A program made the position numbers and the translations under genes. Positions 1 to 18,700 of a stretch of 20,000 nucleotides of DNA are shown here, piece after piece. Source of the stretch: Psammoneis japonica (taxonomy: Eukaryota); assembly GCA_008632985.1 (NCBI GenBank), contig QPGO01000290.1:47236-67235 (forward strand), given 5' to 3'. The first letter of the stretch is position 1, and each line of letters opens with the position of its first letter. Under the pieces are notes generated by a model. That model was not told the origin of the DNA, made no database searches, and saw only the letters and a program-made list of their open reading frames with translations.

Positions 1-350
1 CTGTGTTGCGAGCGTGCAAGCGCTGTGTCAGCCTGCACAGACAATTCAAACCATTTCATGCAATCAACCAAGTGCCACACACCCGAAGCAACTGACACAA
101 GAACTCTCCTGCTCAGGGGTGGCCTGCTCTGCTCTGTGGTCTGTGGGGCACTGCAGACCGAACGCAGTGGGCGGTTGACATGCAGATGACAGCTGCCAAG
201 TTTGCCTGCCCTGGTCCATCTGCGGCACTGGGCTGATGCAAACAAAATGTTCTGCTGCACATTCTGCCATGCAGGCATCAGCGACAAACCCACACACAAG
301 CTCTTCAGCGACAAACTTGCGAGCCAGCCTTCGCTGCGCACAGCCGTGCC

Positions 351-437
351 AGAGGAGCCACCACCTCAAAAAATCTCAAAGACAAGAAGTTCACCACAAG
401 CAAAGCCACGCAAGAGGAGGACCACCTCAAAAAATCT
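351..437 (+). repeat. Short imperfect direct repeat (~25 bp x2)
   Basis: agaggagccaccacctcaaaaaatct (351-376) and agaggaggaccacctcaaaaaatct (413-437). Confidence 0.75.
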
Positions 438-689
438 TTGAGACGAAAAGAAAAAGTTCTGCAAAAAATTCTGCCAAACACTCTACCTGAGCAGAAAGAA
501 AGGCCGGCGTGCGGTGGGGAGATGGGGCATTTTGCTGTTTTTCAGACATTCTCCATGACCAAACAAGTCATTCTGACACAGTGCAACAGTCAAGATTGAA
601 TGTTGCAACAAATGCAAAGTGTGTCAAAGCCTGAAGCACTGGATGAAATGCATTCGTTGATCTCTGGGACTGAAGCGCTTCTCTGAAAA

Positions 690-1054
690 GTTGAAAAAGC
701 TCACCTTCGAGTTGAAAAAAGTTGAAAAATTTCACCCCCAAGTTGAAAAAAGTTGAAGAAGTTTACCTTGTTTCTCTTTCACAGTCAGCCACAGACTTTG
801 CCCGCAACATCACATGGTGAAAATGGGGCCAAAGTGAAAAAGCTCACCTTCGAGTTAAAAAAAAAAGTTGAAAAAGTTCACCTTTTTGAGTTGAAAAAAG
901 TTGAAGAAGTTCACCTTCAAGGTGAAAAAAATTCTCTTTCACAGTCAGACACGGACATTTCATGGACGTTGCACACAACATCATGTGGTGAAAATGGGGC
1001 CAAAGTGAAAGAGTTCACCTTTGAGATGAAAAAAGTTGAAAAAGCTCACCTTCG
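690..1054 (+). repeat. Tandem repeat: ~31-bp unit nested in a ~160-170-bp higher-order unit
   Basis: Unit gttgaaaaagYtcaccttcgagttgaaaaaa at 690-720, 721-751 and onward (~8 full or partial copies). The spacer ttctctttcacagtcag...ggtgaaaatggggccaaagtgaaa occurs at 772-839 and 932-1010. Confidence 0.9.
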
Positions 1055-1615
1055 CAATGAAGCAAGGCTGCCATCGCCAAATGTCTTGGCTGGCAAGCAA
1101 GCACATCTTGTTCATGTCAAGCCATGACATGTGCATTTTACACTCTCAAGTGCCAGTGTTGAAGGGCAAGTTCATGTGAAAAGAGAAATGCGCGGGTTGT
1201 TTCTCTTCAGGGAGTTGGCCATCAAAATTGCAAAAATGCCCGATCTCCTGGCAGAACATTTGACAAAGGCACACAACAAGTGCTGACATTTCTGCTTGTG
1301 TGAGTTTGCTTTCTGGTGGAAGAATGTGACTTCTTGGGTGGAATTTTGGTTGTGATGGCATGGCATGTCATCTCCATGGTGGAACAAAGAATTTTGATGC
1401 GACATGCACGTCTGACAGACCAAGGTGCACCCGAGTGAATTCACATGCCAGCTGGGTCTTGAAGTGGCAAAGTCACCCTCAAAAGCATCACCATGGCTGA
1501 ACAAACATGCTTCCAGTGTTGTTGGATGTCCTGTCATCAACCCGTGTGAATCTTGTGGCATCTTGGCTTGAAATGATCTGACAGAGATGTTTTGCAACAA
1601 CAAGAAGCAGTGGTT

Positions 1616-2373
1616 TCAGTGTCTGAAATTCTCACCCAAGTCAAGCAGGGAAAGCTGAGAGCAATGGATGCCAAAAAGCTTTTTGAATCTAAAAGAAATT
1701 TGCCAGAACATGAGGTGTTGAGAGGTCATTTGCCAACTGGGATCACAATCATGGGATCCGAGTGAGATTTTCTCAAGACAGCAAAACAAGTCATGGCACA
1801 CAGCAGTTCTTGACAACATGGTGCATCATGTCAACATCTTGATCAATGACAATGACAACAAGAAGAGTGTGGCAAGAGCAAACATGATTGTGGCCACAAG
1901 AGTTGACCCAGTTCAATCAGACAGAAATGCTGCACAAGCACGGAAACACCACCTGTCATGAAGTGTCGCACACATTGCATCCATGCAGGCATCTGCTCTT
2001 GACTCTCTGGAAAAAAAAACCATCAGTGATGACTCACATGACAAGCCAACAACTGTTGTTGCATGTGCAGGAACCACTGATTTTCTGGTGACCATCACGT
2101 TGGAGTTGGCAGGTTGCTTCCAAGGCTGCAGGACCCATCTGTGAAAGGCATCATTGCATGTGCCAGCATGGATGGTGCCTTGTCCAGTGTTGTTGGTGGT
2201 CTCATGAGTGTGCCTGTGATTGTGGCTCCAACCTCAATTGGTTGTGGAACAGCTTTCGGAGAGGGGGCTGAGAGCATTGCCAACCATGTTGAGTTGCTGT
2301 GCTCCTGGCATTGGGGCAGGTTGTCAACATTGACAGTGGTTTTGGCACAGCTGCTCTTGCACTCAAAATGGCG
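1616..2373 (+). pseudogene. larB: LarB/CpmA-like (PurE/AIR-carboxylase fold, nickel-pincer cofactor biosynthesis) pseudogene with frameshifts and an internal deletion
   Basis: Collinear LarB motifs across shifting frames: SVSEILTQVKQGKL..A; FANWDHNHGIRVRF (cf. FAxLDHxRxxRxGFPE); IVATRVD; VVACAGTTD; IIACASMDGALSSVVGGLMSVPVIVAPTSIGCG (cf. AGMEGALPSVVGGLVxxPVIAVPTSVGYG); GLRALPTMLSCCAPGIG; VVNIDSGFGTAA. Gene ends are approximate. Confidence 0.88.
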
Positions 2374-2568
2374 TTGTTCCTTTTCTCAGGCAAAAACAGG
2401 GTTGATGGAAAATGCTCCAATGGCCCACACCATAGAATCGCCGTGGATGACGAACTGTCTCTAACGCTGCAAAAAGTGTCAGTGGTTCCCAACACACAGG
2501 TGAGCTTGGCTGGACCAAGCAGCTGCAAAATCAAGGACAACAGTGCCAGTTGAACCAAAAGCCACCTG

Positions 2569-2609
<41 letters not shown>
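2569..2609 (+). repeat. (CT)n microsatellite, ~20 units with one interruption
   Basis: ctctctctctttctctctct... read directly from the sequence. Confidence 0.97.
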
Positions 2610-2610
<1 letters not shown>

Positions 2611-3178
2611 AATGAAGGGCTCGAATTTGCTTGTCAACGCCGGATGCTGCTGCGTCGGTGTGGTGGTCTCTCAACATTCCAGGTCACGCTTCTGTTCAGA
2701 GCTCATCTTGCTCCCAGTTCTCCTCTTCATGCTGGGGCCCTTTCCAATGTGTGTGAATGAATGGGTTTTCAAACCTTCCCCATCATTGTCGTTGTTGTCC
2801 AGAGCCAGCACTTTTGCACATCTCTGGCGAGTTTTCCTCCCAGAGAAGAGTTTCCGAGTGAGGTTCACTGTTGTCAGACCTCGACAAGAGGACTTTGCCA
2901 ACAGAACATGTGAAGACATCACCCGCAGGAGGGAATCAACGTCTCTTGTGGTTCCACCAGTTCCACCGAGTGAGAAAGGTTGTTCAATGCGACCAGCTTG
3001 GCGACAAGAGCACCTCGGACCGTCTGTCTGCCCCGGTGAGCGGTGGGACGACCACTCGCAACAAAACAACAAAAACGACGACTCACTTGCTCTCTGCTCC
3101 GGCAGATGATGAGAAGAAGGGCACGTCCCCTCGAAAAAGTCGGCCAACCCTTGTTCAAGGTTTGTCAATTGCAACAGG

Positions 3179-4141
3179 ATGGAACGCCACCCACTGGCAC
3201 ATGCAGTTCGTGAATCAGGTGACGGAACGATGTCCGGTCACAATCCGACGGTGCGGGGAGACCCAAGTTTCATCTCCCGCGCTGGTGTTGATCGTGGTGG
3301 ATTATCATTTGTGCAATCCCGCTCAAGACCCTGGGTGCCCATTATGCCATCCATGACACAAGCCTCCCAAGCAACGCATGCAGAGTCATCGTCATCATCA
3401 TCGTCAACTGGTGTAGTAGACGGGTCAATGTTGCCGCCGCCCAATGGTCGCGTTGCACCACTGCTGCCGTTCTGGAATCATCCTCCAATGGTACCGAACG
3501 TCCACACAAATGTTGTTGATTGTCGCCTTGCGCTGAACGTCAACGCAAGCGTTCCATCTGCACCTGTTCGTGGCTTTACGCCATCGCTACCAAAGCCGCC
3601 GAGCTTTCATGCATCCTCAAAGTTTGTGGATATGTCTCCGGCAGGAGGGTTTGCCACTGTGCCTGTTCTCAAAGTCGATGAGAAGGTTCTTAAAAGACGA
3701 GCTTACATGCCAAGACAGAGTGAGGAAATTTCCCGGAAAAAGAAGGCAAAGAAAGCTCTGGTACAAGAGAAAAAGAAGAAATGGAGCAAGAAAATTATTA
3801 AGCGGAAAGCTTTGACACCGGCACCAGCTGCTGTCACTCCACTTGCTCCATATCTGATTCCAAAAAGCAGCATGCTTGAAAAAGACAACGCAGCTGCTGT
3901 GACTGAGACAGAAACAAGGGTAAAACAGAAGCATCAACTCTGTGAATTGGATAAATCAAACAGCACAGGTGACAGTCGAAACACTGACAAGGGGCGAGAT
4001 TTCAACGATTCACAAGGCAGCACTAATGAGCAGAGATTAATGAAGCTTGCAAAGAAACTCAACGTTCAAGTAGATTGGGTGCCGGATGATGAGTTGGACC
4101 CCATGGATGAGAGCTCTGGTTGTCCCACGGTGTATCTGTAG
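3179..4141 (+). CDS. Hypothetical low-complexity protein (Ser/Pro-rich, Lys-rich basic patch)
   Basis: 320-codon ATG-initiated ORF lying mostly in normal-TA sequence, so its length is not explained by loss of stop codons. No recognisable domain. Both ends are uncertain (possible intron near 4130-4190). Confidence 0.4.
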   Translation: MERHPLAHAVRESGDGTMSGHNPTVRGDPSFISRAGVDRGGLSFVQSRSRPWVPIMPSMTQASQATHAESSSSSSSTGVVDGSMLPPPNGRVAPLLPFWNHPPMVPNVHTNVVDCRLALNVNASVPSAPVRGFTPSLPKPPSFHASSKFVDMSPAGGFATVPVLKVDEKVLKRRAYMPRQSEEISRKKKAKKALVQEKKKKWSKKIIKRKALTPAPAAVTPLAPYLIPKSSMLEKDNAAAVTETETRVKQKHQLCELDKSNSTGDSRNTDKGRDFNDSQGSTNEQRLMKLAKKLNVQVDWVPDDELDPMDESSGCPTVYL

Positions 4142-4763
4142 CATGTTTTTTTTTGCTATTTCATGAGTTCTTATAGATGATTGACTTCAGGATGATCGAG
4201 AAGATATAACCATACCTGGCAATCGGTCTCAAGTCAGGACGGAACGCAACAACGAAAGTATTACATGCATGGAGTATCAGGTCCGATATGTTTAGCATGG
4301 ATTTGATACCCAGTTCTTCAAGCGGTATCGAAGCAAATGTGCAAAGACCAATGAATAGTCCATGTAGAAATATTTTTCCCTTTCCAAATATTATTCGTCG
4401 TTCCCAACATACGTCGAACTATTCCTTCCGCGGATTTTCATCCTTCATGTCTCGCCCATACGGTACAAGTATGGCCCTTGTGATCCCGGTACAAGTAGTG
4501 ATCTATTGTAGCATGGGAATGGAGATGGCATTAGCCACCACGATTTGCCTCATGTCGTCACAAATGGCAAAACCCGGGCCGACCAAAATGTCAAGTTGTA
4601 GTCGTACGTAGTTCCGTCGCGTAATCACGTGGTCGGAGCCGAGAGGCTTTCCGAAAAGGGAAATTCCAACACCGTAGGAATTCGCACTATTGTGCTCCCG
4701 CTTTTCCGGACGCGGCGAGTGAGATATGCATTAACAGACGACAAAAAAAGTGATGCTGTTATA

Positions 4764-5714
4764 TTATTTGAACACCGACAACTTCCCAAGAAACTCTTGA
4801 ATTGTTTCAAAGCTCATAAAGATGATACCCTGACCAGGAACAACCCGTCCCAAGCGAGGCAAAAGTCCAGCATAAAAGGCAGGGATGCCCTCCTTTACCA
4901 AAATTTGTTTGAAACAATCAAAGGTATTCTTGTATTGGGCAGCTTTTGTACCTTGCATGCGTGTCTGTTCAATACGGTGTATTTCGATGAAGCATGAGTC
5001 ACTTCCATTCATATCAAATCATCAAAACGTGCGTCGACTTACCTTTACGACGTCAAAAGGATTGTTTCCCAGTGTGCTGAAACACCCGGCGCTCATTCCG
5101 CCCAACAAACCCATAATGGGCGTCAGATTCTTTTCACCATCATTTGTAACAATCCGTTTGTATTCATTAAACCACATGAAACGCAATCCTTGATTTGAAC
5201 CCTGCTTTAGGGCCGTGGCAATTCCTCCTTGGTACACTCCGCGGATGCCTTCCGTTTTCAAAATATGCCCAAAGCCCTTGACAAAGGGCATGTTGAGTTC
5301 AATGCATTTTGTCTTTACAGTTTCCACTGGAGCCACAATGACGAGCGCTTCCGTCACACCGGCACCCAAACCCGCTACAAAATTTTTACCCGGCGTCAAT
5401 TTTCCTTGCGGATCTCTCAACTTGTCCTTGATGACTGAATTGAGTCCGAATCGAATACCCGCCTTTGGGATGCTTCCCAACAAGGTCGGTGCCAAGCCGC
5501 GATAGAGTGAGAAAAAGCCCGTCGTTTCGACTGTGTATTGGAGACCCGAAATCATTCCTGAATAGGGTAATTTGGCACCCTTGGTTTTGGATTGGAGTTG
5601 CAATTGTGTTTTGATAAATTCCATGGGCCACACCGCCGTGGCTTCCACGCCGCCGGCAATACAACCCGCCGCCATGGGCAAGAGCGGATTTTTCGTTTTT
5701 GTTTTTTCCGACAT
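4764..5714 (-). CDS. Mitochondrial carrier (SLC25), citrate/tricarboxylate transporter CTP1/SLC25A1-like; 2 exons (5714-5043, 4964-4764), ~290 aa
   Basis: Three PX[DE]XX[KR] signatures (PMEFIKTQ, PVETVKTK, PFDVVK|TR), plus PKAGIRF and KQGSNQGLRF typical of citrate carriers. A 78-nt GTAAGT...CAG intron (5042-4965) joins the exons in frame. Confidence 0.92.
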
Positions 5715-6355: not shown

Positions 6356-7656
6356 ATGGTGCTTCCTATTCAAAAAGATCATCGGTATCAAGGCCAGTCC
6401 AACGAAAACGGCTGCTCCAGTGGCATGTTGTTGACGGATGACGCGCAACAGACAATAACATCAGTTTCAGAACTAAGAATCAACACTACTTGTGCTCGTG
6501 ACGACACTTTGTCGTCGCCATTATGCCTGGAACGAACGCTTTCGGAGAAAAGCTTTGATGAAAAGGATTGTTTCTTTTTACCCTTTGGTGGAAAGCATCA
6601 TCATAATAAAGAAAAACAGCATCAAGATATTGTAAAGGTACTGGCGGAAAAGACGTGCACATGGATGGAAGAATTAGAAGAGAAGCGACGAAGAGAATCG
6701 GCAGAGCATCGAATATCCCAAGCCATTCTTGGATTGAGGGCAGCGAGCGAACGTTCTAACAGCAGTGACTCTGTCTTGTTGCAAGAAGGAGCATCCTCGC
6801 CATTGCATGAGCTAGTTGGAGACGTGGGAGTGGCCATGTTTTCGCCTCTGACAAGACGGCCTTTGAACCACAACAACGAAACAACTCATGCAAAGAAGAA
6901 GAAGAAAAGAACACTCATCACGTAGAGTCGGAAAAAATCGAAGACACCGAGACGGATGACGACGAGTCGGAGGAATACTATGCAGTGCAAATCGAAGACG
7001 AACCGGATGCGGATTTGATTTCTTGTCCACGATTGTTGACACCCACCATGATGCAACAATTGGTGGATGACGACGCACTTCCCGAAATTTTAAAGTCCAA
7101 GACTTGGAAGCGCATTTTTGCCATTGGTCGTGATGGCGATGCGTTTTGTACCATGGCGCAACATTGTCACTCGTACAAGTATTCACTCGTTGTGGCTCAA
7201 ACACCAGAGGGTCATGTCTTTGGAGGATTTGCAACCGAACCGTGGACTCGTCGTCAAGACGGAGTGGGACGTTGTTTTTTCGGAAGTGGACAGTCCTTTT
7301 TGTTTACGAGTTTTCAAGACGAACAAGCCGAGTCTGTCGGACAAGATGATGGCAGTGATTGTTTCCATGATAGCAACATGAATGAACTAGCCGTATACAA
7401 GTGGACGGGGAACAATCGATATTGTCAAGTTTGCGACGTGGACAATGGATTGATTGCCATGGGCGGAGGCGGAGCCTTTGGTTTGACGATTGAAGAAAAC
7501 TTTACTCGCGGTGGTACGGGCAAATGCGACACGTTTGGCAACCCTCCTTTGATCCCGTCGCGTGACGAACGATTTGACATTTCCAACTTTGAAGTTTATG
7601 GGTTTGTCTCGTCGTCCCAATCGTTTAGTTCGGGCCGAGGCAGCCCTTCTCTGTAG
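6356..7656 (+). CDS. TLDc-domain protein (OXR1/NCOA7-like C-terminal domain); one apparent frameshift within 6811-6925
   Basis: TLDc motifs WKRIFAIGRDGDAF, GHVFGGFATEPW, FFGSGQSFLF, YKWTGNNRY, IAMGGGGAFGLTIEENF, CDTFGNPPL, FEVYGF. The TLDc frame is open back to 6811 and overlaps the upstream ORF that begins at ATG 6356. The 5' model is less certain than the domain. Confidence 0.85.
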
Positions 7657-7760: not shown

Positions 7761-9422
7761 TCATGATGAACGGTTATTGCCTCGCCACTGAAACAAACCA
7801 TAGTACACGAGGCATGGAGGTACGCTGTCGTAAACTTTGCCGTGATTGGAGGGGTCCGCATAGTCCTTGAGTTTCCGTTGGTTGGTGCAATCTCTCAACA
7901 ACAATCGTACAGCACTCTCGTGCATTTCATTGCCGGCATAATTGACATTCAACACATAGAGTTCATCTTCGTCCTCTTCATTGTCATGTTGCTTGTTGTC
8001 GTCATAGTATTGCGAGATGTCTTTCATGGGTGTAAGAGACGCAAGAGGATTCTTTACGAGCGACATGCGAGGGCCAGGTGGAGTTGGCAACCAGCCCTCG
8101 GGACAAGCAGAATCCGTCACATCTACTACAACCTCATGACTTGACTCATCCGTAGTACTGTCATCCGTAGTGTTGTCCGACTCTTTGGCATTATCGTCCT
8201 CGCCATTGCGTTGTTCGTCCTCTTCTTCCGCCCCTTGTGTACCATTCACTAGACTGAATGCGGGTGGCGCCAGCAGGGTCGGAGGTAGAATGGACTGGGC
8301 TCCACCATTGCGTTCAAATTCCTGGATAATGTTGGGCAGCTCCGTCAAGAGTTTACCAAGCTTATCTCGAGCATTTTCAAAAGAATTGTTGACAATTGTT
8401 TCATTCCAACCTCCCTTTTTTGTAAGTAGCAAATGCTGCAGTGCCTGACAAGTTAATGAGGCATAGTTGGTTGCCATGAGGGAAATGTTAATGGAAACAC
8501 CCGCCTCGACGGTTTCCACCTTGTGCCACATGCCGGCGGGAAAGTACAAGGAATCACCTGCTTTTAAAACGATCGAACATTGCTCTCCACGAGCATTATT
8601 ACTCTTGCAGGATGGCTTGTCAAATTCAAACGTGGGACACGTCAGCCGTGCCGCTTTGAGCTGTGATTCCACAGCACGTGGTGCTGCATAGTGGGGTGTA
8701 CAACCTCGCAACGGATACTTGACAGTTCCCTCTTGGAGAGTCCAACGTTTGCTTCCACTGAGTTGAATTGTAAAATTTTCTTGAAAATCATAATGCCAAT
8801 CCGTCATGTGGGCACAAGTTCCCTGAAATACTTCGACTTCACCACGACCCATGCACGTTGATCGTTCTCCCGTTGGATCGTATTGACCACAACCAATGCC
8901 GGTTTCGGCAAGCATTCGTGAAACGAGCAGCTGTTCCAATGTTGGATTGGCACGACAATACGTGGCATGGCCAGCCTGGTGCAACGACAGTGCTGTCGAT
9001 GGATCCGAAATTTCAATACTTTCAATCAAATCTTGCTTTACAAGCCACACAAAGACGTTCTCCGAACTGGTCTCTGCGATAATCGACCCGGAATCCAAGT
9101 TGTACATGTATTGTTGAATTAATTTCTGGACGCGTTCGTCGTGGTTTCCCGAGGAAATGTGCAAGGCCTTTTTTCGAAAACAATGTTCTAGAAAATCATG
9201 GACGGATAGTGGAAAGATGAACGATTGTAGTAGCGAGGAATCCGACGACGATGGATCAATAATTGGTGCATTTTCGTGATTTGATGTGAGAGACAGAACC
9301 GGTATAGAGGGGGACAGCTCCTGCAGTCGGCGAGACGCATCTTGTTGTATCGTTTGAAAGCCGTGCTCTTCTTTTTCCGTCTTTTGTCGTTTGGTGGTTG
9401 GGCCGTTGCTGATGGATGCCAT
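7761..9422 (-). CDS. JmjC/cupin 2-oxoglutarate-Fe(II) oxygenase, ribosomal oxygenase (NO66/MINA/YcfD)-like, ~553 aa
   Basis: HxD...H triad: TDWHYDFQENFTIQLSGSKRW and LKAGDSLYFPAGMWHKV. N-terminal FLEHCFRKKALHI segment. First ATG at 9422; uninterrupted ORF. Confidence 0.88.
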   Translation of the reverse strand: MASISNGPTTKRQKTEKEEHGFQTIQQDASRRLQELSPSIPVLSLTSNHENAPIIDPSSSDSSLLQSFIFPLSVHDFLEHCFRKKALHISSGNHDERVQKLIQQYMYNLDSGSIIAETSSENVFVWLVKQDLIESIEISDPSTALSLHQAGHATYCRANPTLEQLLVSRMLAETGIGCGQYDPTGERSTCMGRGEVEVFQGTCAHMTDWHYDFQENFTIQLSGSKRWTLQEGTVKYPLRGCTPHYAAPRAVESQLKAARLTCPTFEFDKPSCKSNNARGEQCSIVLKAGDSLYFPAGMWHKVETVEAGVSINISLMATNYASLTCQALQHLLLTKKGGWNETIVNNSFENARDKLGKLLTELPNIIQEFERNGGAQSILPPTLLAPPAFSLVNGTQGAEEEDEQRNGEDDNAKESDNTTDDSTTDESSHEVVVDVTDSACPEGWLPTPPGPRMSLVKNPLASLTPMKDISQYYDDNKQHDNEEDEDELYVLNVNYAGNEMHESAVRLLLRDCTNQRKLKDYADPSNHGKVYDSVPPCLVYYGLFQWRGNNRSS

Positions 9423-9468
9423 GTTCAAGAACCAAGAAAGAGAAGGATGAATGGATTGGGTGAGGGTA

Positions 9469-11007
9469 TTTTTTAAAATAGAAGATTAAGGAAGCCTATG
9501 TAGAGCGGAAGGTAACAGCAGAGGGAGGCACGGAGGAAGCTGTAGAGACGGTAGAGTAAAAAGGTCGATGGACGCAAGACGAAGGGCGTTTTGTGGAAGG
9601 TATGGGTGAGGAGGGGGCAGGGAGAGAGGAGGTGAATCGGAGGATGTGCGTAGAAAGGTGAAGAAAACGTTGTAGCCAAGAGTTTGGGTGGCCCACTGGG
9701 ATGGGGTGGCTGTACGGTAGGTGTTTCCAAAGCGATCGGCGGACAGGCGACGCCATGCGGAGTCAGCAGAGGGAAGGATTGCAGACGGAGATGACAAAGC
9801 GTAGAGGAAGGCGGAGTAGGAGGCATCGGAGTGACGAAGGTCAGAGGAAGAGGACCAGGGTGGCTTGGGCTGAGAGCAAATAGAGGGGGATGTAGAACCA
9901 AAGAGCAAGCGGTGGGCAAAGTAGCCGAGACCACCAAGGTGATCTACAGTGAAGGGGAGCAGAAAGATGCCATTGTTGTCAAGCGAAGAAACAACAAGGG
10001 ATCCATCGGCAGAGGAAGTAGAGGGGCCAAGAAACTTCAATCTCGCGCTCGAGTGGTGTGCCTCAGTTAAGATGGGAGAAGAGGGGGCAGGCAGACCTGG
10101 AGGAGGGCGAGAGGAAGCTTGAGGGACGGTGACATCCACTGCAATGCAGTGATGGCGGGAGGGAGCGGAAAGGGAGGCGGGAGGGGGGATTGAAATGCCG
10201 ACATCGGTGGGACGGAGAAGCGGGCGGGTGGGGAGTAGGTTGGTGGGTTCAAGATGAACGTTGTTGGGGGATCGACAGAACTCAGCAAGAGGGCCCAAAG
10301 TTTGGGCTGGGATGAAAACAGTGTCACGGAGACCATTGGAAAGCTTGGACTTGTGAGCACGGCGGCAAGAAAAGGCATGATCACCGCAGGCATCCAGAAT
10401 GGCATGGCCACAGGGACAGGGAGTGTTGACAAGGGACGGAGGAAGGATGGGGAGACGAAGCTTACGAAGGGCGGCAATGGCGCAGGCGTCCGAAGAAAGG
10501 CGGGAGCTTGGAAAGCGACGAGAGAAGGAATGAAGAGGGAGGCTTGTGAGCGGAGACAGCAATGAAGGGAGCGAAGATTGCACGTCGTAAGATGAGTTAG
10601 CAAGGATGGAGGTCACTGCTTGTTGCTGATGTTCATGGTAGAGACGACGGGCCAGACCGGGGAGAGTGGCCGATTTAACCAGGGCAGCCAAGGAAGAAGA
10701 GGAAAGGGTGGAGGCGGAAGCCAGAACGGGAGCACAACGGCGGAAGAGCGCACAGAGTCGCAGGGAAGAGCAAGGGTTGGACCAGGAAGACAGGGAGAGC
10801 CGAAAGCAGCGCGGAAGGGAAACAGAAGCGCCAGATGGCAGGCTGACACCGTGCGAAGCAAAGCGGAACGAGCGGAGAAGCGACACCAAGAAGGAAGGAA
10901 TGGCGGCAGCTGTTGGGTCCCGGAGACCAAACCCGCCTGAGGAGGCAGGAAGGAAGGCGATGGCAATGGAGTGGTCGGGAAAAGGAGCGGCGAAGGAAGT
11001 GACGTAG
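9469..11007 (-). mobile_element. 5'-truncated non-LTR retrotransposon, CRE-like with restriction-like endonuclease (RT core missing)
   Basis: Post-RT motif LPASSGGFGLRD; RKLRLP followed by CCHC knuckle CPCGHAILDACGDHAFSC; LRD...EP...RPTD...AVDVTV...K...LLPFTVDHLGGLG endonuclease motifs. Stop at 9486, then a short A6 tract (9474-9469). Strong purine/pyrimidine strand skew. The 5' end is approximate. Confidence 0.82.
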
Positions 11008-11056
11008 TGTTTTCTTGTCAATTTTGAATTTTGTGAGTGGTGAGGTGGCAGGTGAG

Positions 11057-11155
11057 GCGAAAAAGATCGGTCGGAGGAAGACGAGAACGGACAGACTTGA
11101 GCAGAATTCTCCGCACGTGCCGCACTCGTGTCGGAGGGGGGATTTTGGAATTTTC
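11057..11155 (+). repeat. Diverged ~100-bp direct repeat, copy A
   Basis: gcgaaaaagatc-ggtcggaggaagac-gagaacggacagacttgagcagaattct...gtcggaggg-ggatttt aligns with 15536-15636. Confidence 0.8.
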
Positions 11156-12083
11156 GCCATCTGCGTTGAAGGTTGAAGGTGCACATGTCGACAATGTTGC
11201 CTGCTGCGTTGACAAACTGGACGTCATCCATGGGCAAACGGATGAAGAACATGACAGAGGGGTTGGTGACAGTGTTGTCCAGCTGATGGAGGTTGATGAT
11301 GCCTTGCATTTTTGCACACATGACATGATTGGGATGGAGACATGGTCAGCCACCGCACCATCATCCTGGATTGGTTTGAGGATGCGCCATTGTTGTCAAG
11401 GCAGTCTGGGATGATGGCTCCAGTGGCATCATGGTGTGTCATGATGGCAAGATTCACAGGATCCTTGAGGGACTGGTGACCTGCACTCTTCCATTCAGCA
11501 GCAATCTTGACTTCAACAAGGCTGGTTTGACTGGCGAGAGTGCCCACGATGGCAAGGCAGTCCCCGTGGGGGACAGCCCAGATGTGTTGATGACTGCACT
11601 CTTGTTGACATTGAATGCAAGGCAGTGCTTGGCATCAGCCATGTCTGTGGCAATGTGAGGGCAGACACTCTCAAGGTGATGCAATTGTGCGCGCAGGTGT
11701 GATGCGCTTCTTCGGGATGAAGGTCTTGGACAGAGGGTTGGCCAGATGCTTGTCGGTGGACAATGGTTTGGCACATTTGACAGGGGCTGGGGATTCACTG
11801 TGTTGGGTGAAAAGGTCTTGCAGATTGTGGATGTGTTTGTCGAATGGTCGAAGCATCGCTTGAAAGTGGAGCAGTGTGAAAAGCGAATGATTCTCAAAAT
11901 TTTGAACTGCTTCTCCTGTCGTGGTGAGCCGAAAAGTGGCGAGTGAAAGGAGAGACCATTGGCAATTGGCAATTTTCCCAATGGACAAATGGTCAAGCAG
12001 TGCCAGCTTGCATGAGCTGCACCATGTGCTGCTTTTGTGCACCGCGATCCGGAGAGATGATGCAAGCACCATTGCTTGAGACC

Positions 12084-14159
12084 ATGATGGCAGCTGGGAC
12101 GACCAACAGTGACAAGTGGCTTGCTCTAAACAAGGGTCGTGTTCAAGAAAAAGCAGGAGGAGACAAGTGGGAGGAGGAGCTTTGGACAGATTTCATTGAG
12201 GAAGCATTGTGGTCCCTGCTGCACGAGAATGATGTCATTGATGGAGACACGATTCGCACCGCCGAGGGCCTTGTCAAGTGCTGAGTGCAAACCAAGAAGC
12301 ATCTGATTGCAATGGCCAGAAAGCCTCCCAACAGAAAGCAGCTCTATGAAGCATTTAAGGGGGAAGATGTGCCTCTCATCATCTGTGCTGTGTTGTTTGA
12401 TGAGTGCGTCCATGTGAGTCGAGATGGTGAGTCTGAACTGTTTCTTGCACTTCTGTGTCCCAAACCAACACTTCTTGTCAGTGGTGTCAGAAAACATGTT
12501 TTGTTGTTAGATGTTTAAGTCTGGACTGTTGCTCACAGCCGGTGGCATTGCATGTGTGAGTCAAACATGCGGCATCAAGGTTTGGACCTCTTCTCACTCC
12601 TTCATCTTTTCACTGCTTCGCTGCAGAAAGAGAGCACCCCACTGTGTTTTCAAGCGATTGCCACTCCATCTGCACAAACTTGTGCACAAAAATGTCCCCA
12701 CTGGCAACTCTAATGCACCACGCATCCATCAAGATCTTGAAGACTTTCCAATGGACAAACTCAAGCCTCTGCAATTGGAAGAGTGTGTCAAAGATCTGTT
12801 CAAAAGAAGACACCAAGAGGAAGAAATGGGTCAAGGAAAGGTCAGTTGCTCCTGAGAAAGACAGGCACAAGATCACTGTGATCACCTTGTCACAAACATG
12901 ATCAAATCTTGCAAATGTGACCTTCACACAGACAAAGAGGCGTCTCTCAATGGTTTGAAAGTGGATGTCGAGATGCTTCGCAATTGGTTCGACACTGTTT
13001 GTGGAACGATGGAGGTGAAACAGCCGAAAAGAAAGAACATCGTGCCCCCCAGACCCAGACCCAATGAACCATCCAAAGGTCATAACTCAGGTTGCATCTC
13101 AGATGACACCACTCCACACAATGTGCGGCACTTGCCAAAATGTTTGCGGGATTCTTTCCACCTGCTCTTCTTGGCATTTTTTCAGATGGGCACCAGCGAA
13201 AGAGGACATTGGGCAACTGGAGGACAAAACTGGGCAGATGCCACAGGACCTTCACTTGTTGGAGCCACACAACAAAAACTCATTGAAAGGTGATTGTGAC
13301 AAATTTTGAACACCACAGAAACCAAGGTCATTGTTGGAGGTTGGAAATGATCATAAATCTCCTTCCATGTTTCCCAAACCGCATGTTGACTTGGGCAAAT
13401 GTGAGGAGGAGGGGAAGTCGAAGAATTGGATGATTCTGCCAAGGCAAATAAACAGGGAACATTGCATGCATCTGATGTCATTTCGGATGGGGCGCTTGTG
13501 CTGAGAATGCCAGCTTGGGTGTGTTGGGAGAAATGGCACGATCACCAGTCAAGCGGCTGCCAGCTCATGAGCATGATTTTCTCTGTGTTGTGAAAAAGGG
13601 TGATGCTTTGGGTGGCCATGAAAAGCTCAAGCATGACCTCAATTTCTACAAAGGGTGAATGCCGAACTCCAGGAATGAAAAACTGCATGTGCTGGAGGAG
13701 CTGGGTCACTGGCATCATGGCCATGTGCATTGTGCAATGAGCAGAAATGGCAATCTTTGTGTGCTGAAGCACTTTGTCAAGGGTCAGCATGCCACACTGT
13801 CAAATGGCAAAAGAAAAGCAATTGATGATTCAGAAGCCACTGCAAGCAAATCGGTCAAACACTGGAACACAGCCTGTGACAACTGGCTTCCTCATGTGTC
13901 AGCTGGAAAATGAGGTGGTGGCAATGCCATCATCATGCCAGACTTGGAGAAAATGTCAGCACAGCATGAACCTGAGAAGGTTTTGCCCATGCTTGGACAG
14001 ACTGTGAAAAAGAGATTCCATGACAAGGGCATTTGGCATGGGGGTGCCGCTTGGCGAAATGTCACATTGGCCAGGAACGCAAAAGGCAACATGACAAAAG
14101 TTTGCATGACAGATTTAGAGCCGCAAGGAATGATCAATCAAGTTGAAATCTCGAAGTGA
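12084..14159 (+). pseudogene. Decayed header + PD-(D/E)XK nuclease-like + protein-kinase-like gene (Crinkler-type REase-kinase architecture)
   Basis: Nuclease-like EASLNGLKVDV...CGTMEVKQP, then KVITQVASQM...GILSTCSSWHFFRW. Kinase-like VLEELGHWHHGHVHCAM...CVLKHF...GK*GGGNAIIMP...FHDKGIWHGGAAWRNV...VCMTDLE (13659-14159 in one frame with an internal TGA at 13911). Candidate introns at 12414-12510 and 12556-12626 (GTGAGT...AG). The 5' exon assignment is tentative. Confidence 0.65.
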
Positions 14160-15535
14160 TGGGACTTCAAAAACATGTGGACAGACTTCAAACGGAACCT
14201 TCAAAGTAATTGGGAGCAATTCAAGGCGGCTGAAGGTGTGCAATGAACTGCGCAGGCTCCTTTCTTGGCTTGTTGCATCACCATTCTATCCATCCAGCTT
14301 TTAAAAAAACTTTGAACTGTGCTGTTCCACTTCTTGAGTTTTCTTTTGTCAACAAACTGTTCTGTTCTGCGCTCTGTGGATTCTGAGATGTTGACGCTTG
14401 GTGCCCGACAAACCAACACATGGGGGTCATCACGGTCTTCCCGTTTGTGTTCCCTCCCACCCAACAGAGGTTTGGCCAGCCATTGGGGCACTGCAAGCCT
14501 TGGCACAGTCAATGGAATGTCCAATTCTGTTGCAATGATTACAATGACTGCTGCAGTGTGGCCCATTTCTTTGCCCCCATCAGCACTCCAAAAGTCAAAC
14601 TCTGTCGCCAACAAGCAAGGAACAACCACCCACTCACTGCAGCACCATTGCAACAACCAACAATGATCAGTGGGATTCTCAGAACATTCCAGTGATGCCA
14701 TCAAGACCACACAAAATGTTTTTCACACACCCGTGCCCACTCTCAAAAAGGAGAACAGCCACACATCAACGTTGACGGCATGCCATGCAGAAGTTTTGGC
14801 TCCTGGAAGTCTTGCAACCACTCGGTGAGAATGCAGCATGGGCCATTTTTCTTTTTCTGCAGTGAAAAAACACACTTGGCAATGACAGTGAAGGGGTGAG
14901 AGCCACCGCCACTGGCAACCCATGGGGCAACATGAGGAGCATCACTGAGAAAGAACCCAACACCCACAACATTGGGCATGATCAGCGTGGCACATTCTCT
15001 GGCAACCACAAATGGTGCTTGTGACCCAGTCATGCCACAATGGGGCAACAGTGGGCAGAAAACTTGGTCAGGGAACAGAAGCAACATGTGAAAGAAGTGG
15101 TGCTTGACAAGCAGGGTGTTTCCCCTGTTGCTGACCCCCTCTTCTGTCCCTGATGGGGTGCAACAAAAAAGCAGCACAGCCCTGAGGACACAGAGAAACT
15201 TGTCACAGCTGAAAGAGCAGTTTGTGAGCAAAATGCAGCACATGGGAAAAATGAAGCACCTTCATTGGACAGGAAGAAGCACAGGAGTGTCTTTTGGCAG
15301 AGGAGAGACACACAACACAGAGGAGCACAGAAATTTCAAAAAACAATTGGAGAAAACTTGCCACTGGTGCATTGAAAGAGACACTGTGCATGAGGGATGC
15401 AGTGCAAGACATCACTGCAGGAGTGAGTTTCAAAGAGGTCAGGCCACTGCCGAAGGCACCTCCTGGGGTCAAATGTCTTGTTGAGAAAACCAATGTTGAG
15501 CACAACCTGCAGCGGGTGAACGCATTTTTTGTGTC

Positions 15536-15636
15536 GCGAAAAAGATCGGGTCGGAGAAAGACGGAGAATGGACAGACTCGCGTAGAAATCTACATCATCC
15601 TCCGTAAGTCTCGTCGGAGGGAGGATTTTCGATTTC
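15536..15636 (+). repeat. Diverged ~100-bp direct repeat, copy B
   Basis: gcgaaaaagatcgggtcggagaaagacggagaatggacagactcgcgtagaaatct...gtcggagggaggatttt; same orientation as 11057-11155. Confidence 0.8.
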
Positions 15637-15739
15637 AGAAAAATTTCAGTGGCGAGCAGGAGTGCACTGTTTCCATGTTTCGACGCAACTGCGTTTGACA
15701 ATAAGAACGTATTGTTGATTCGAAAAAACAAACAACAGT

Positions 15740-18700
15740 ATGCAAGAACAACGCGTTTCGTTGGAGATGGTCCATCATGGTGCTGCCGCGTCGTCGTCGG
15801 CTCATTCGGTAGTGTGGATTCCATCATCAGACGACCATAATAATTCCTTGGTTGTGTACTCGTCTCACGGACTGTTGAATATAGCCACGCTCGAAACCGT
15901 AGTGCTAGGCACACAACAACAAGAGGTTTGGAACACGACTACCAGTCTGTGTACAGCGACGGTTGGGAGTGATGTTAGTACGAAACGGGTAATTTCCTGC
16001 TTGGCCCATGTGCGTCCGGCAGTCCAGAATTCTTCCAATCATGTATGCATCGCGACTGGCTTTTCCGACGGCACGGTGAACACTTGGACAAAGCAGCAAG
16101 ACAATCAAGACGATTGGAAAGAACATGTCGTGGTACAACCACCATCTGAAAAAAATGGACAACACGCCATTACAGACATGGATGGACTCCTGATGAATGA
16201 CAATGTCGTTTTTCTGGTTACTTGTTCGTCGGACGGTGCCTTCTTGTTGCAACAACATGGAAACAAAGAAGAACCAAAGAGACTGGCATCCTTTTGCGCC
16301 AATACGGTTCGACTCGAACAAATGGTGTCGTTGGATAAAATTATAATTTTGGTGGGAACCGCTCATCCGCGACACAACAAAATTCACGTGTACACCATGA
16401 ACTGCAGCAGTACTGGCAGTGATGATGTTCACCATTGTGGTCATTTGAGTGGACATCAAGATTGGATCACGTGCTTGGATTGGAACATGAATGAAAAAAC
16501 AATTCCCATGCTGGCCAGTGGTAGTCAGGATGCTAAAATTCGCTTGTGGCGATTTACAACCGTCTCCACCACGAGCAGTTCGTCCAATCATCAAGAGGAT
16601 GTTTTGCCCACTGTTTCGGATGATGAGGATAGTGATCTTGACTCTCTTTCCGATGACAATGACGAAGGCGAGGCTCGATTGGAAATCCTGAATGAAAAGT
16701 CCATAACAAGTGTTACACTGGAAGCCCTTCTTCTGGGCCACGAGGAATCCGTCACGTCTGTCCATTGGCATCCCAACCCACAACGTTACTACGGACAAGC
16801 TCACATTTTGATGAGCAGCAGCATGGACCGAACCATTTTGATTTGGGGACCCACCAGTGATGCTGGTGGAGTTTGGACGCCATTGACACGAGTGGGAAGT
16901 GCGGGAGGTATTCTCGGTGGATCCATTGGTTCATCGCTGCTGGGATTTGTCAATTGTCAAGTGGAACCCGTGCGAGGATCACGACTCTTGGGTCATGCGT
17001 ACGGAGGGGCTTTGCATTTTTGGTCTCTTGAAAGTAGTAGCCATGACAAAGAATCATGTATTACTCTTTCCATGGATGAAATGGCGGCTCAAAACAAGTG
17101 GAAGGCGACGCCCTGCCTGACTGGCCATTTTGAAGGTGTCACGGACCTTTGCTGGGAAGCGGAATCCGGCGACTATCTCTTGACGGTCAGCATGGACCAA
17201 ACGTGCCGTTTATGGGGTACTGTTTCAACGACTTCCAAAAAGGATGTATGGATCGAGCTGGCTCGACCACAGGTACACGGATACGATCTAAATGCCATTG
17301 CATCCGTTTCTACCGTACAACACAAGCATTTGATGGCCAGCGGTGCGGATGAGAAGGAATTGCGTGTCTTTGACGCTCCTCTCACCACGACAAATATTCT
17401 ACGAGCTGCGAGTGGTATTGTTGATGATTCGAATGTAGAATCGGGAGACTCATCGCGTGTCGAGCGTGCTTACATTCCCTCGTTGGGTCTCAGCAACAAG
17501 GCGACGGCTGTCGAGAGTGCCGAAGAAGACACGGGTGGTATTGACGACAATGGCTCATCCTCCCAAGACAAATCCTTCCATTTGCCTCTGGAACGGGATT
17601 TGGGCGTCATGTCCTTGTGGCCAGAGGTTCGCAAACTTTTTGGGCACAATACGGAATTATTCTGCCTTGCTTCGACAGTGTCCGCTCGGTCTGGTGCGAA
17701 ATACTCGTCTAGTCCCTTTGCCGAGATGTTCTTGTTGCGTCCTCGGCCAAAGCAAGAGATGTGAAGCGGCCTCGATTCGAATTTGGGATATTGAAAAAGG
17801 AACGTGCGTTCAGGTTCTAAAGGTAAGATACATCACTTATGATCGAGCGTTGTCCTGTGGTAAGAGTGGTGTTACCAATCGCTCCTTTGCATGCATCTCT
17901 TCTGATTACAGGGCGGGCATCGATCAACCGTGGCTACGTTGAGCTTCTCGCCTGATGGAAGATATTTGGTAAGATTAGATTAGCGCCTGCAAATGTCATG
18001 ACGTTTGGTGTTCTAACTTGCGCGAACCTTCCTTGTATAGGCGTCATCCGGCAAAGACCGTCGGCTTTGTTTGTGGAAAAGGGACGAGCCTAGACTGGAT
18101 TGCCCTCCATCATTTTCACTCGCAAGTGCAATCGATTCCGCTCACAAACGAATCATTTGGAGTGTTCATTTTTGTCCGCACGACCCTTGTATTTTGCGTC
18201 GGGGTCTAGGGACGGTTGCGTCAAGATTTGGAAGGTGACCGAGGCTCCAAGTCAAGATGATGACGGAGCGAAAACGACACAATTGAAGACGTTGAACAGG
18301 TGAGATACCGTAGCAACTGATGAATTGACTAGCTATGCGCCCGTATCCGTGTATCACTCATGTGATTGTTTCTGTCTCCAGCTTTGAGCCAGAAACGAAA
18401 ATTGGCAAAAGGGCGGATTCAGTGACGGCATTGTCGTTTGCTCCTTGGCTAGTAACTACGTCGGCCAATAAGAGCTGTGCAGTCCTTGCTCTTGGACTAG
18501 AAAGTGGTATTATTGAATTGTGGTCCGTGCCACTGTCAGACAAGAGTGTCGGGGAAGGAAAACCTGTGGTTTGTCGGAACATCCTCTGTACTCCTCGACA
18601 TGAATCTCATTGCGCCACAATAACCAAGCTTGCATGGAAACCAATCAACAACAGGGAAGACAACGATGGAAAGTCACAAAGGATTCCGCCATGCTTCTTG

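What the first reader, a model, noticed from the sequence alone, without database searches (positions are those of the whole stretch)
11008..15582. Domain-restricted erasure of TpA: candidate 'reverse-RIP' A:T->G:C hypermutation system
Seen: about 15 TA in 4.55 kb (two TA-free runs of >1 kb) despite abundant T and A, with strong TG/CA excess, while flanking genes have normal TA. In the embedded pseudogene, positions where the family consensus as I recall it has Tyr read Cys/His (TGC at 13163 in GILST[C]; CAC at 13770 in VLK[H]F; V[C]M[T]DL). Known: fungal RIP gives CpA->TpA and so raises TA, and 5mCpG deamination lowers only CpG, so neither explains this. Inference: a process converting TpA to TpG or CpA (A->G on either strand) acts on repeat/accessory DNA. 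Every Tyr codon, two of three stop codons, TATA and AATAAA signals and Tc1/mariner TA target sites contain TpA, so it would disable almost any gene and could be a genome-defence system. Candidate mechanisms are a TA-preferring DNA adenine deaminase or Pol eta-like error-prone patch repair (WA hotspot). I do not know of a description of this process but cannot check the literature.
Basis: partly seen in the sequence, partly recalled or inferred. Interest (0 to 1): 0.93.

Follow-up and report, generated by a model that had tools for sequence, protein, structure and literature searches.

The report
TpA-erased DNA islands in a diatom
Two stretches of non-genic DNA in what is almost certainly a diatom genome have had nearly every TA (and most CG) dinucleotide turned into TG or CA, the same signature as the TA-specific hypermutation reported in 2026 for the unrelated alga Bigelowiella natans.

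Summary
Window 11008-15582 has 15 TA where 298 are expected (O/E 0.05). CG O/E is 0.36 and TG/CA O/E about 1.7. Neighbouring genes and other intergenic DNA keep TA at O/E 0.34-0.70. A second island lies at 1-3302.

The embedded gene is a dead copy of the kinase-like DUF5898 family, with three frame changes and three in-frame TGA. Against nine homologues, 10 of 11 consensus Tyr columns read His or Cys. Seven of 13 Arg columns read His/Gln/Trp/Cys/stop, which is CpG decay. Total pyrimidine-purine steps are unchanged, so TA and CG were converted in place by transitions.

ApA, ApT and G+C are normal. That argues against Pol-eta WA hotspots, biased gene conversion and RIP.

Flanking genes point to a diatom. 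A 2026 preprint showed experimentally that B. natans mutates only TpA to TpG/CpA in integrated viral DNA. The process is therefore no longer undescribed. My paper searches found no report of it in diatoms, nor of its pairing with CpG decay.

The enzyme, the targeting signal and any defence role remain untested.

The parts
11008..15582 (.). Main TA-erased island: 15 TA (O/E 0.05), CG O/E 0.36, TG 1.74, CA 1.70; G+C 48.8%, like the flanks
1..3302 (.). Second island with the same signature (7 TA, 84 CG, 332 TG, 346 CA). It runs off the window's left end and holds 31-33-bp tandem repeats (686-1061) and a CT microsatellite (2569-2609)
12931..14245 (+). Pseudogene of the kinase-like DUF5898 family. 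It has three frame changes (near 13028-13071, 13420-13426, 13521-13530). 10 of 11 consensus Tyr columns now read His/Cys. It may start further upstream, near 11990 (inference from open frames only)
13656..13658 (+). In-frame TGA where homologues have Arg (consistent with CGA to TGA, CpG decay)
13911..13913 (+). In-frame TGA where homologues have Trp (GKW-GGG motif)
14157..14159 (+). In-frame TGA where homologues have Trp
9470..11340 (-). High-copy repeat: summed contig depth 3000-5000 against about 60, loose ends at 9470 and 11010. It carries one open frame, 9486-11345 on the minus strand. The frame's tail resembles C-terminal regions of reverse-transcriptase-bearing proteins, which is a lead only
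10241..11340 (.). Part of the repeat next to the island: TA nearly gone (6 TA in 1100 bases) but CpG kept (O/E 0.87), so TpA loss and CpG loss are separable
11056..11152 (+). Left copy of a direct repeat of about 100 bp (about 78% identical by my reading of the core). It has no TA. Two of the right copy's three TA read CA here; the third is in a poorly aligned stretch
15535..15633 (+). Right copy of the direct repeat. It straddles the island's right edge and keeps TA at 15583, 15591 and 15605 and its CpGs
15740..17764 (+). Intact WD40-repeat gene 157 bp beyond the edge; TA O/E 0.43, CpG 0.98
7761..9428 (-). Intact JmjC/cupin gene on the other side; TA O/E 0.49. Its named relatives are all diatoms

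Best explanation
The island is silent, non-genic DNA: a dead kinase-like gene, unidentifiable sequence and the edge of a repeat. It sits between two active genes in a diatom. Two context-specific transition processes have rewritten it in place, on both DNA strands.

(1) A:T to G:C changes confined to the dinucleotide TpA, giving TpG or CpA. This is the signature measured directly in Bigelowiella natans.
(2) C to T changes at CpG, the expected decay of methylated cytosine.

Both feed the same products, so nearly all pyrimidine-purine steps end as TG or CA.

Shown: the direction of change, the TpA restriction, the action on both strands, the limitation to a domain, and the death of the gene.

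Inferred: the TpA process is enzymatic and follows a chromatin or silencing state. Within that, my split is about 35% adenine deamination at 5'-TA, as proposed for B. natans, and about 15% oxidation of thymine at 5'-TA followed by mispairing. The two give identical sequence outcomes. The rest is unknown. TpA sites were lost about 2.6 times faster than CpG sites in the same DNA. This comes from survival against the flanks: 0.095 for TA and 0.40 for CG, my arithmetic counts.
For: Polarity. tblastn of nine homologues gave 19 matches. That yielded 225 columns with at least 3 homologues and at least 60% agreement, of which 167 are identical in the window. Consensus Tyr, 11 columns: His 8, Cys 2, Tyr 1. 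Consensus His (6/6) and Cys (2/2) are kept, so the change runs from Tyr outward. Of the 58 changed columns, 16 fit a single TpA to CpA/TpG step and 15 fit CpG to TpG/CpA. There are 10 other transitions, 11 transversions and 6 multi-step changes.

Conversion in place. Pyrimidine-purine steps make up 23.8% (island) and 23.3% (island 2) of dinucleotides, against 24.3% and 24.4% in the flanks. TA+CG make up 10-12% of them inside and 36-37% outside.

Specificity. ApA, ApT and TpT O/E and G+C equal the flanks.

Both strands, site by site. TG 501 against CA 475, and a runs test gives z = 1.1.

Domain restriction. Other intergenic DNA has TA O/E 0.57-0.70. The codon 3-1 boundary in four intact genes has 0.51 (64 TA). 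The edge at 15583 is sharp.

The gene is dead. It has three frame changes without intervening sequence and three in-frame TGA.

Contig differences. All 6 in-island differences shown in the contig table are at these sites. At 11363, 14320, 14370 and 14824 they are CpG against TpG/CpA. At 12287 two other contigs, probably other copies, read TA against the window's TG, and at 12289 CG against CA.

Precedent. In B. natans, 230 of 231 de novo substitutions in two integrated viral regions were A to G or T to C, all of them at TpA. That study also found 124 TpA-poor, CpA+TpG-rich clusters genome-wide (sections read).
Against: No de novo events were observed here. This is a fossil signature in one 20-kb window, and no genome is held.

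The polarity rests on protein consensus, because no DNA of intact homologues could be fetched. Where a change was ambiguous my classifier took the TA or CG path, which affects 3 of the 58 cases.

No viral or clearly foreign gene was found in the island, so the 'foreign DNA' target reported for B. natans is not shown here.

The B. natans preprint does not mention CpG at all, so identity of the two processes is not established.

The only mutation-accumulation study of a diatom that I found (Phaeodactylum, PMC6604790; passages read) reports a GC-to-AT bias and names CG/CC/TG as the mutagenic contexts. The passages I read do not report a TpA effect.

The confirming contigs may come from the same sample as the window.
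Confidence: 0.72

Rival explanations
1. Untargeted neutral equilibrium. The whole genome has a strong TpA to TpG/CpA and CpG to TpG/CpA mutation bias. The islands are simply the only unconstrained DNA in a compact genome, and selection keeps TA everywhere else.
For: TA is under-represented throughout the window (O/E 0.34-0.70 in genes and other spacers). The islands hold no intact gene.
Against: The least constrained sites outside the islands keep ten times more TA. The codon 3-1 boundary has O/E 0.51, and the other intergenic stretches have 0.57-0.70, the highest in the window. CpG O/E is 1.06-1.32 in those spacers against 0.21-0.41 in the island, so the islands differ in state and not only in constraint. 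The edge at 15583 is abrupt.
Confidence: 0.12
2. Native composition or selection. The block came from a donor, such as a virus or mobile element, whose DNA avoids TA and CG. Alternatively, TA is selected against, for instance as a transposon target or nuclease site.
For: The block is bracketed by a direct repeat of about 100 bp and abuts a high-copy repeat, which fits an insertion.
Against: The gene inside is broken, and its Tyr codons have turned into His/Cys at family-invariant positions. That is decay, not adaptation. The left copy of the bracketing repeat has lost the TAs that the right copy keeps. No viral relative was found in the one scan of viral contigs.
Confidence: 0.04
3. RNA-level A-to-I hyper-editing (ADAR-like) of a transcript, followed by reverse transcription and insertion.
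For: ADARs prefer U 5' of the edited A (stated in the preprint's discussion). A retroelement-like repeat is adjacent.
Against: Editing one RNA strand gives TA to TG on one strand only. Here TG 501 against CA 475 are interleaved without runs (z = 1.1), and both His and Cys replacements occur within one gene. The signature also covers a flanking repeat copy and 1.1 kb of the neighbouring repeat, which points to action after integration. That ADARs are confined to animals is recalled, not tested.
Confidence: 0.04
4. Base-calling or assembly artefact at chemically modified T or A (and 5mC) in a heavily modified domain.
For: The platform of the only holding run is not on record, and that run may be the source sample.
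Against: Separately built k-mer contigs at about 60-fold depth reproduce the islands: 0 differences over 1-2562 and 14 over 5.9 kb. A strand-specific miscall at a palindromic TpA would give conflicting calls from the two strands, including new CG, and not a clean loss of both TA and CG (inference). Twenty-seven of the 58 protein changes and three frame changes are unrelated to TA or CG.
Confidence: 0.03
5. Error-prone patch repair by a Pol-eta-like polymerase (WA hotspot), or GC-biased gene conversion.
For: Both give A:T to G:C changes (recalled).
Against: A WA motif includes ApA, yet ApA O/E is 1.19 inside against 1.15-1.21 outside. ApT is 0.90 against 0.89-0.99, and G+C 48.8% against 47.6-48.4%. 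The loss is strictly at TpA.
Confidence: 0.03

Closest known systems
TpA-specific hypermutation of integrated NCLDV and virophage DNA in Bigelowiella natans (Mettrop et al., bioRxiv 10.64898/2026.01.13.699255; abstract, Results and Discussion read)
   Same: Both show only TpA changed, to TpG or CpA according to strand. Both are confined to discrete domains of silent or single-copy DNA beside normal genome. Both leave a long-term footprint of low TpA with high CpA+TpG. [quoted passage not shown]
   Different: The host differs: a diatom (Stramenopila), inferred, against a chlorarachniophyte (Rhizaria). This case is a near-complete fossil, whereas the viral regions in B. natans still hold 3.3-9.2% TpA. 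Here the loss goes together with CpG loss, which the preprint does not mention. No viral gene was found here. No rate was measured here.
Repeat-induced point mutation (RIP) of fungi
   Same: A dinucleotide-specific transition process that destroys genes in non-essential DNA and leaves compositional islands.
   Different: The chemistry and outcome are opposite. RIP turns CpA into TpA, so TpA rises and G+C falls. It also needs duplicated DNA (recalled and stated in the preprint's discussion). Here TpA is erased, G+C is unchanged, and the island is mostly low-copy.
Decay of methylated CpG in silenced DNA. Cytosine methylation covers about 6% of the Phaeodactylum genome according to the passage of PMC6604790 read, which cites Huff and Zilberman 2014 and Veluchamy et al.
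   Same: It explains the CpG part: CpG O/E 0.21-0.41, Arg codons turned into His/Gln/Trp/Cys/stop, and CpG against TpG/CpA differences between the window and the run's contigs.
   Different: It cannot remove TpA. TpA loss also extends over 10241-11340, where CpG is kept at O/E 0.87.
ADAR or APOBEC editing footprints in retroelements (PMC4866542 seen only in a search listing; otherwise recalled)
   Same: Deaminase-type clustered transitions recorded in genomic copies of mobile DNA.
   Different: Those footprints are on one strand and are made before integration. Here both strands are affected and so is adjoining DNA.

Membership tests
B. natans-type TpA hypermutation | Changes are A:T to G:C transitions at TpA only, giving TpG/CpA | tested here: met
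   10 of 11 consensus Tyr columns read His/Cys. 16 of 58 changes fit a single TpA step. ApA, ApT and TpT are unchanged
B. natans-type TpA hypermutation | Confined to discrete genomic domains next to normally mutating DNA | tested here: met
   Edge at 15583. Neighbouring genes and spacers have TA O/E 0.34-0.70
B. natans-type TpA hypermutation | Target is integrated viral or other foreign DNA | tested here: inconclusive
   The island holds a dead DUF5898 kinase-like gene, the edge of a repeat and unidentifiable DNA. No Pfam hit other than DUF5898 in six frames. No relatives in the one viral-contig scan. Two ORFs are without clear homologues
B. natans-type TpA hypermutation | De novo rate about 1000-fold above background, active in only some lineages | not testable with these tools
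   Needs mutation-accumulation lines or pedigrees. The one run found is held only as contigs
Fungal RIP | C to T at CpA, raising TpA and lowering G+C | tested here: not met
   TpA O/E 0.05, CpA O/E 1.70, G+C equal to the flanks
Fungal RIP | Acts on duplicated sequence | tested here: not met
   Summed contig depth 68-175 in the island against about 60 in the flanks. The highest-copy part of the repeat (9470-10240) keeps TA O/E 0.70. Contig depth is a rough guide to copy number only
Methyl-CpG decay | CpG to TpG/CpA, with CpG depletion limited to the silenced domain | tested here: met
   CpG O/E 0.21-0.41 against 0.98-1.32 outside. 7 of 13 Arg columns changed by a CpG step. Methylation itself was not measured
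ADAR-type RNA hyper-editing before retro-insertion | A to G on one strand only | tested here: not met
   TG 501 against CA 475, interleaved, runs z = 1.1. 12 TA to CA and 4 TA to TG on the coding strand
Pol-eta WA-motif mutagenesis | A mutated after A or T | tested here: not met
   ApA O/E 1.19 inside against 1.15-1.21 outside
DUF5898 (PF19250) protein family, for the embedded gene | Sequence match to family members and to the Pfam model | tested here: met
   Nine homologues with E from 8e-127 to 5e-40, six of them carrying PF19250. The Pfam match of the read-through frame is weak: E 0.006, 16.9 bits, below the 28.9 cut-off. The gene is broken

The most novel reading that the evidence does not exclude
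TpA erasure is an ancient chromatin-directed genome-defence pathway shared by distant SAR lineages (diatoms and chlorarachniophytes). In diatoms, one activity that recognises 5-methylpyrimidine-purine steps in silenced DNA could drive both TpA to CpA/TpG and 5mCpG to TpG/CpA. Candidates are a TET/JBP-type oxidase acting on T in TpA and on 5mC in CpG, or a dual A/C DNA deaminase. Such an enzyme would be a natural A:T to G:C editor of double-stranded DNA with dinucleotide specificity.
Probability: 0.15. Interest if true: 0.88.

Novelty: new member of a known kind. Interest (0 to 1): 0.72.

Why it matters
If the same process is at work, the TpA-specific hypermutation known only from a 2026 preprint on one chlorarachniophyte also occurs in diatoms. 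Diatoms are a major and genetically tractable algal group. That would change the question from an oddity of one species to a possibly widespread way of permanently disabling silent or invading DNA.

The diatom island adds three things:
- It shows the end state, with about 95% of TA gone and every Tyr codon but one destroyed.
- It shows the process in DNA without viral genes.
- It shows the process overlapping with CpG decay but separable from it, which links it to chromatin state.

There are two practical consequences. TA/CG-free, TG/CA-rich islands are an easy marker for such DNA in assemblies, and they will mislead gene finders, because few stop codons remain and long false ORFs appear. The enzyme behind the process, once found, would be a candidate natural A:T to G:C DNA editor.

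Tried and rejected
- Whole genome: none is held, so no genome-wide scan, no paralogue DNA and no deaminase/TET/DNMT inventory.
- DNA of intact homologues. The search for related loci with alignment A1 failed for lack of a conserved stretch. With A3 it found no confirmed relative in metagenome contigs (281 pattern matches, 0 confirmed) or viral contigs (55 matches, 0 confirmed). With P0004 alone: 64 matches, 0 confirmed.
- Other coding content. Six-frame read-through of 9400-15602 and 1-3401 against Pfam gave only the weak DUF5898 match and one 0.058 chance-level hit. ORF 14746-15261(-) had no homologue. ORF 14204-14722(-) had one weak repetitive hit, E 1.2e-4.
- Hidden repeats. A purine/pyrimidine-coded self-comparison (26-mers) found nothing linking the two islands.
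- Strand-coordinated clusters: none.
- RNA: no RNA holder listed.
- Runs X2 and X3 add little. X2 covers parts of the window at low depth, and X3 laid nothing.
- Earlier notes of this scan: nothing on this genome or sequence. The word searches returned phage and organelle cases that do not bear on this.
- Literature. Six full-text searches returned only the B. natans preprint for TpA-specific hypermutation, and none for diatoms. Subscription journals are outside the library.
- The 31-33-bp tandem units in island 2 show two CA-against-TG double differences between units 772-942 and 932-1110 (read by eye). That fits independent conversion of one ancestral TA or CG, but it is too few to count as evidence.


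Full report

Yes. In 11008-15582 I count 15 TA against 298 expected from base composition (O/E 0.05). CG is 98/270 (0.36), TG 501/287 (1.74) and CA 475/279 (1.70), at 48.8% G+C. Two thousand mononucleotide shuffles gave a mean of 298 TA, sd 12.8, and never fewer than 256. The two TA-free runs are 11005-12127 (1122 bases) and 14540-15583 (1043 bases).

Using the flanks as the local standard, TA makes up 373 of 2578 pyrimidine-purine steps outside and 15 of 1089 inside (Fisher p = 6.5e-42). For CG, p = 1e-23. Four intact neighbouring genes have TA O/E 0.34-0.49. Three other intergenic stretches have 0.57-0.70 with CpG O/E 1.06-1.32.

The right edge is abrupt at 15583, 157 bp before the start codon of a WD40 gene. 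The left edge is graded (see section 4). A second island with the same signature lies at 1-3302 (7 TA, 84 CG, 332 TG, 346 CA).

**2. Is it an artefact?**

One public run holds 95% of the sampled 31-mers of the island. Contigs built from that run reproduce 1-2562 with no difference. They reproduce 12243-18166 with 14 differences and 3 gaps, crossing the right edge, at a word depth of about 60. The run may be the window's own source, so this rules out an assembly accident but is not independent.

A miscall at modified bases is unlikely for two reasons.
- At a palindromic TpA the two strands would disagree and would create CG, not remove it (inference).
- The gene inside carries many changes unrelated to TA or CG.

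**3. What organism, and what lies in the island?**

The window is eukaryotic and intron-poor. It holds a mitochondrial carrier (5022-5714, minus strand), a TLDc protein (6985-7656, plus), a JmjC/cupin protein (7761-9428, minus) and a WD40 protein (15740-17764, plus).

The JmjC protein has 326 relatives at E of 1e-10 or better, of which the best 120 were listed. Every listed hit that carries an organism name is a diatom: Pseudo-nitzschia, Cylindrotheca, Nitzschia, Phaeodactylum, Mayamaea and Bacillariaceae MAGs. The full-length listed hits are mostly 41-49% identical. I therefore take the host to be a diatom without a close sequenced relative. It is not Bigelowiella.

The embedded gene belongs to DUF5898 (PF19250).
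- A read-through of 13476-14245 found nine homologues, with E from 8e-127 to 5e-40. One is a transcript labelled Attheya, a diatom.
- A language-model look-up places the family among atypical protein kinases of eukaryotes (a lead only).
- tblastn shows the copy is dead. The match jumps between frames at about 13028-13071, 13420-13426 and 13521-13530 with no intervening sequence, so these are frame changes and not introns.
- There are in-frame TGA codons at 13656, 13911 and 14157.

Nothing else in the island could be identified.

**4. The neighbourhood**

9339-11339 has a summed contig depth of 3000-5000 against about 60 elsewhere, with loose ends at 9470 and 11010. This is a high-copy repeat. 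It carries one long minus-strand frame (9486-11345). The tail of that frame looked to me like the cysteine-histidine and nuclease tail of some retroelement proteins (recalled). The atlas look-up gave unnamed animal and plant clusters, one of which has reverse transcriptase on 15% of its members (a lead only).

The island proper has depth 68-175, so it is single- to low-copy.

A direct repeat of about 100 bp (11056-11152 and 15535-15633, about 78% identical in the core by my reading of the alignment) brackets the island. The right copy lies at the edge and keeps three TA. In the left copy two of these read CA, and the third lies in a poorly aligned stretch.

Within the high-copy repeat, 9470-10240 has TA O/E 0.70. 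The part next to the island, 10241-11340, has 6 TA in 1100 bases yet CpG O/E 0.87. Two conclusions follow:
- Copy number does not decide what is hit.
- TpA loss and CpG loss can occur apart.

**5. Direction and context of the changes**

I laid the nine homologues on the window with tblastn (19 matches). I kept columns covered by at least three homologues with at least 60% agreement. I dropped the second match of the internally duplicated P0001 and all columns below those limits. This left 225 columns, of which 167 are identical in the window.

| Consensus residue | Columns | State in the window |
|---|---|---|
| Tyr | 11 | His 8, Cys 2, Tyr 1 |
| His | 6 | all kept |
| Cys | 2 | both kept |
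| Arg | 13 | 6 kept; His 3, Gln 1, Trp 1, Cys 1, TGA 1 |

The 58 changed columns break down as follows.

| Class | Count |
|---|---|
| Single TpA to CpA step | 12 |
| Single TpA to TpG step | 4 |
| Single CpG to CpA step | 10 |
| Single CpG to TpG step | 5 |
| Other transitions | 10 |
| Transversions | 11 |
| More than one step | 6 |

Three of the TA/CG cases also had a transversion path, and my classifier preferred the TA/CG path. The excess of CpA over TpG among amino-acid changes is largely a detection effect: TA to TG at third codon positions of Leu and Val is silent.

Across the island TG and CA are balanced (501 against 475) and interleaved (runs test z = 1.1, the same as in the flanks).

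A second line of evidence needs no homologues. Transitions cannot change the purine/pyrimidine pattern. Pyrimidine-purine steps are 23.8% and 23.3% of dinucleotides in the two islands, against 24.3% and 24.4% in the flanks. Only their make-up has shifted, with TA+CG at 10-12% of them inside and 36-37% outside.

The six in-island differences listed between the window and the run's contigs all fall in the same classes. The table shows only the best supported 40 of 527.
- At 11363, 14320, 14370 and 14824 the difference is CpG against TpG or CpA.
- At 12287 two other contigs, probably other copies, read TA where the window has TG.
- At 12289 those contigs read CG where the window has CA.

I read the contexts.

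**6. What it is not**

- RIP makes TpA and lowers G+C. Here TpA is erased and G+C equals the flanks.
- CpG decay explains only the CpG part.
- A Pol-eta WA hotspot or general GC-biased conversion would also deplete ApA or ApT. Their O/E is 1.19 and 0.90 inside, against 1.15-1.21 and 0.89-0.99 outside.
- Editing of an RNA copy would mark one strand only, and would not reach the bracketing repeat and the neighbouring repeat.
- A genome-wide neutral bias is the strongest rival. However, the least constrained sites outside the islands keep ten times more TA: the codon 3-1 boundary has O/E 0.51 (64 TA) and the other spacers 0.57-0.70. CpG also shows that the islands are in a different state.

**7. 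How it most likely works**

Shown: in-place, two-strand, site-by-site A:T to G:C transitions restricted to TpA, together with CpG decay, confined to non-genic islands bounded by active genes.

Inferred:
- A chromatin- or silencing-directed enzymatic process is at work.
- From survival against the flanks (TA 0.095, CG 0.40; my arithmetic), TpA sites were lost about 2.6 times faster than CpG sites in the same DNA. That implies a very high per-site rate, assuming these CpGs were methylated.
- The chemistry cannot be read from sequence. Adenine deamination in 5'-TA on one strand and thymine modification in 5'-TA on the other give the same product.
- I favour a DNA adenine deaminase, as proposed for B. 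natans, at about 35%. I keep thymine oxidation followed by mispairing at about 15%. The mutagenicity of oxidised thymine is recalled, not tested.

**8. Comparison with what is known**

A bioRxiv preprint (10.64898/2026.01.13.699255; I read the abstract, Results and Discussion and searched its text) reports the following for mutation-accumulation lines of Bigelowiella natans:
- 231 of 302 nuclear substitutions fell in one integrated giant-virus region and one virophage region.
- 230 of those 231 were A to G or T to C, and all of these were at TpA.
- Only some lines were affected.
- The genome holds 124 clusters of TpA-poor, CpA+TpG-rich windows.
- An ADAT2-like deaminase is proposed as the enzyme.

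The preprint does not mention CpG, diatoms or stramenopiles.

The present island passes the preprint's cluster thresholds by a wide margin. This is a new host lineage and a more complete end state, without viral genes and with CpG decay alongside.

Six full-text searches found no other report, and none for diatoms. The Phaeodactylum mutation-accumulation paper (PMC6604790; passages read) reports a GC-to-AT bias and CG/CC/TG as the mutagenic contexts, with no TpA effect in the passages I read.

**9. Verdict**

It is a new member of a known, very recently described kind.

Interest is 0.72. The signal is extreme and clean. It extends a days-old phenomenon to diatoms, and it makes testable whether TpA erasure is a widespread silencing-linked genome defence.

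Noticed in passing
window 1-3302: A second TA/CpG-erased island (7 TA, CG O/E about 0.2-0.5, TG/CA about 1.6-1.9) runs off the left end of the window. It ends about 124 bp inside an unannotated ORF (3179-4141, no Pfam match).
   Followed up: partly
window 9470-11340: High-copy repeat: summed contig depth 3000-5000 against about 60. It has one open minus-strand frame of 619 codons, and its 3' end lies 42 bp from the JmjC start codon. Depth falls towards higher coordinates, as expected if most copies are 5'-truncated retroelements (inference).
   Followed up: partly
window 11056-11152 and 15535-15633: A direct repeat of about 100 bp brackets the island. Only the copy inside the island has lost its TA. 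Whether it is a target duplication, part of the high-copy repeat or a duplicated promoter is open.
   Followed up: partly
window 686-1061: 31-33-bp tandem units nested in repeats of about 170 bp inside island 2. Two unit pairs differ by CA against TG at the same dinucleotide, as expected if one ancestral TA or CG was converted independently in each unit.
   Followed up: partly
window 11008-15582, both strands: With TAA and TAG almost absent, the island is full of long false ORFs: 100-220 codons in all six frames, rich in Cys, His, Trp, Gln and Met. Gene finders will over-call here.
   Followed up: yes
window 11363, 14320, 14370, 14824: The window and the run's contigs differ at CpG against TpG/CpA sites inside the island. 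This suggests CpG decay is still going on, or that two alleles differ.
   Followed up: partly
window 11706-14382 (joints): One other contig of the run joins short pieces resembling 11706 (inverted), 13574-13616, 13695-13777 and 14382 onwards. At least one further rearranged relative of the island therefore exists in that data set.
   Followed up: no
protein P0001: One homologue carries the C-terminal DUF5898 region twice in tandem, so the family duplicates internally. The family's function is unknown.
   Followed up: no
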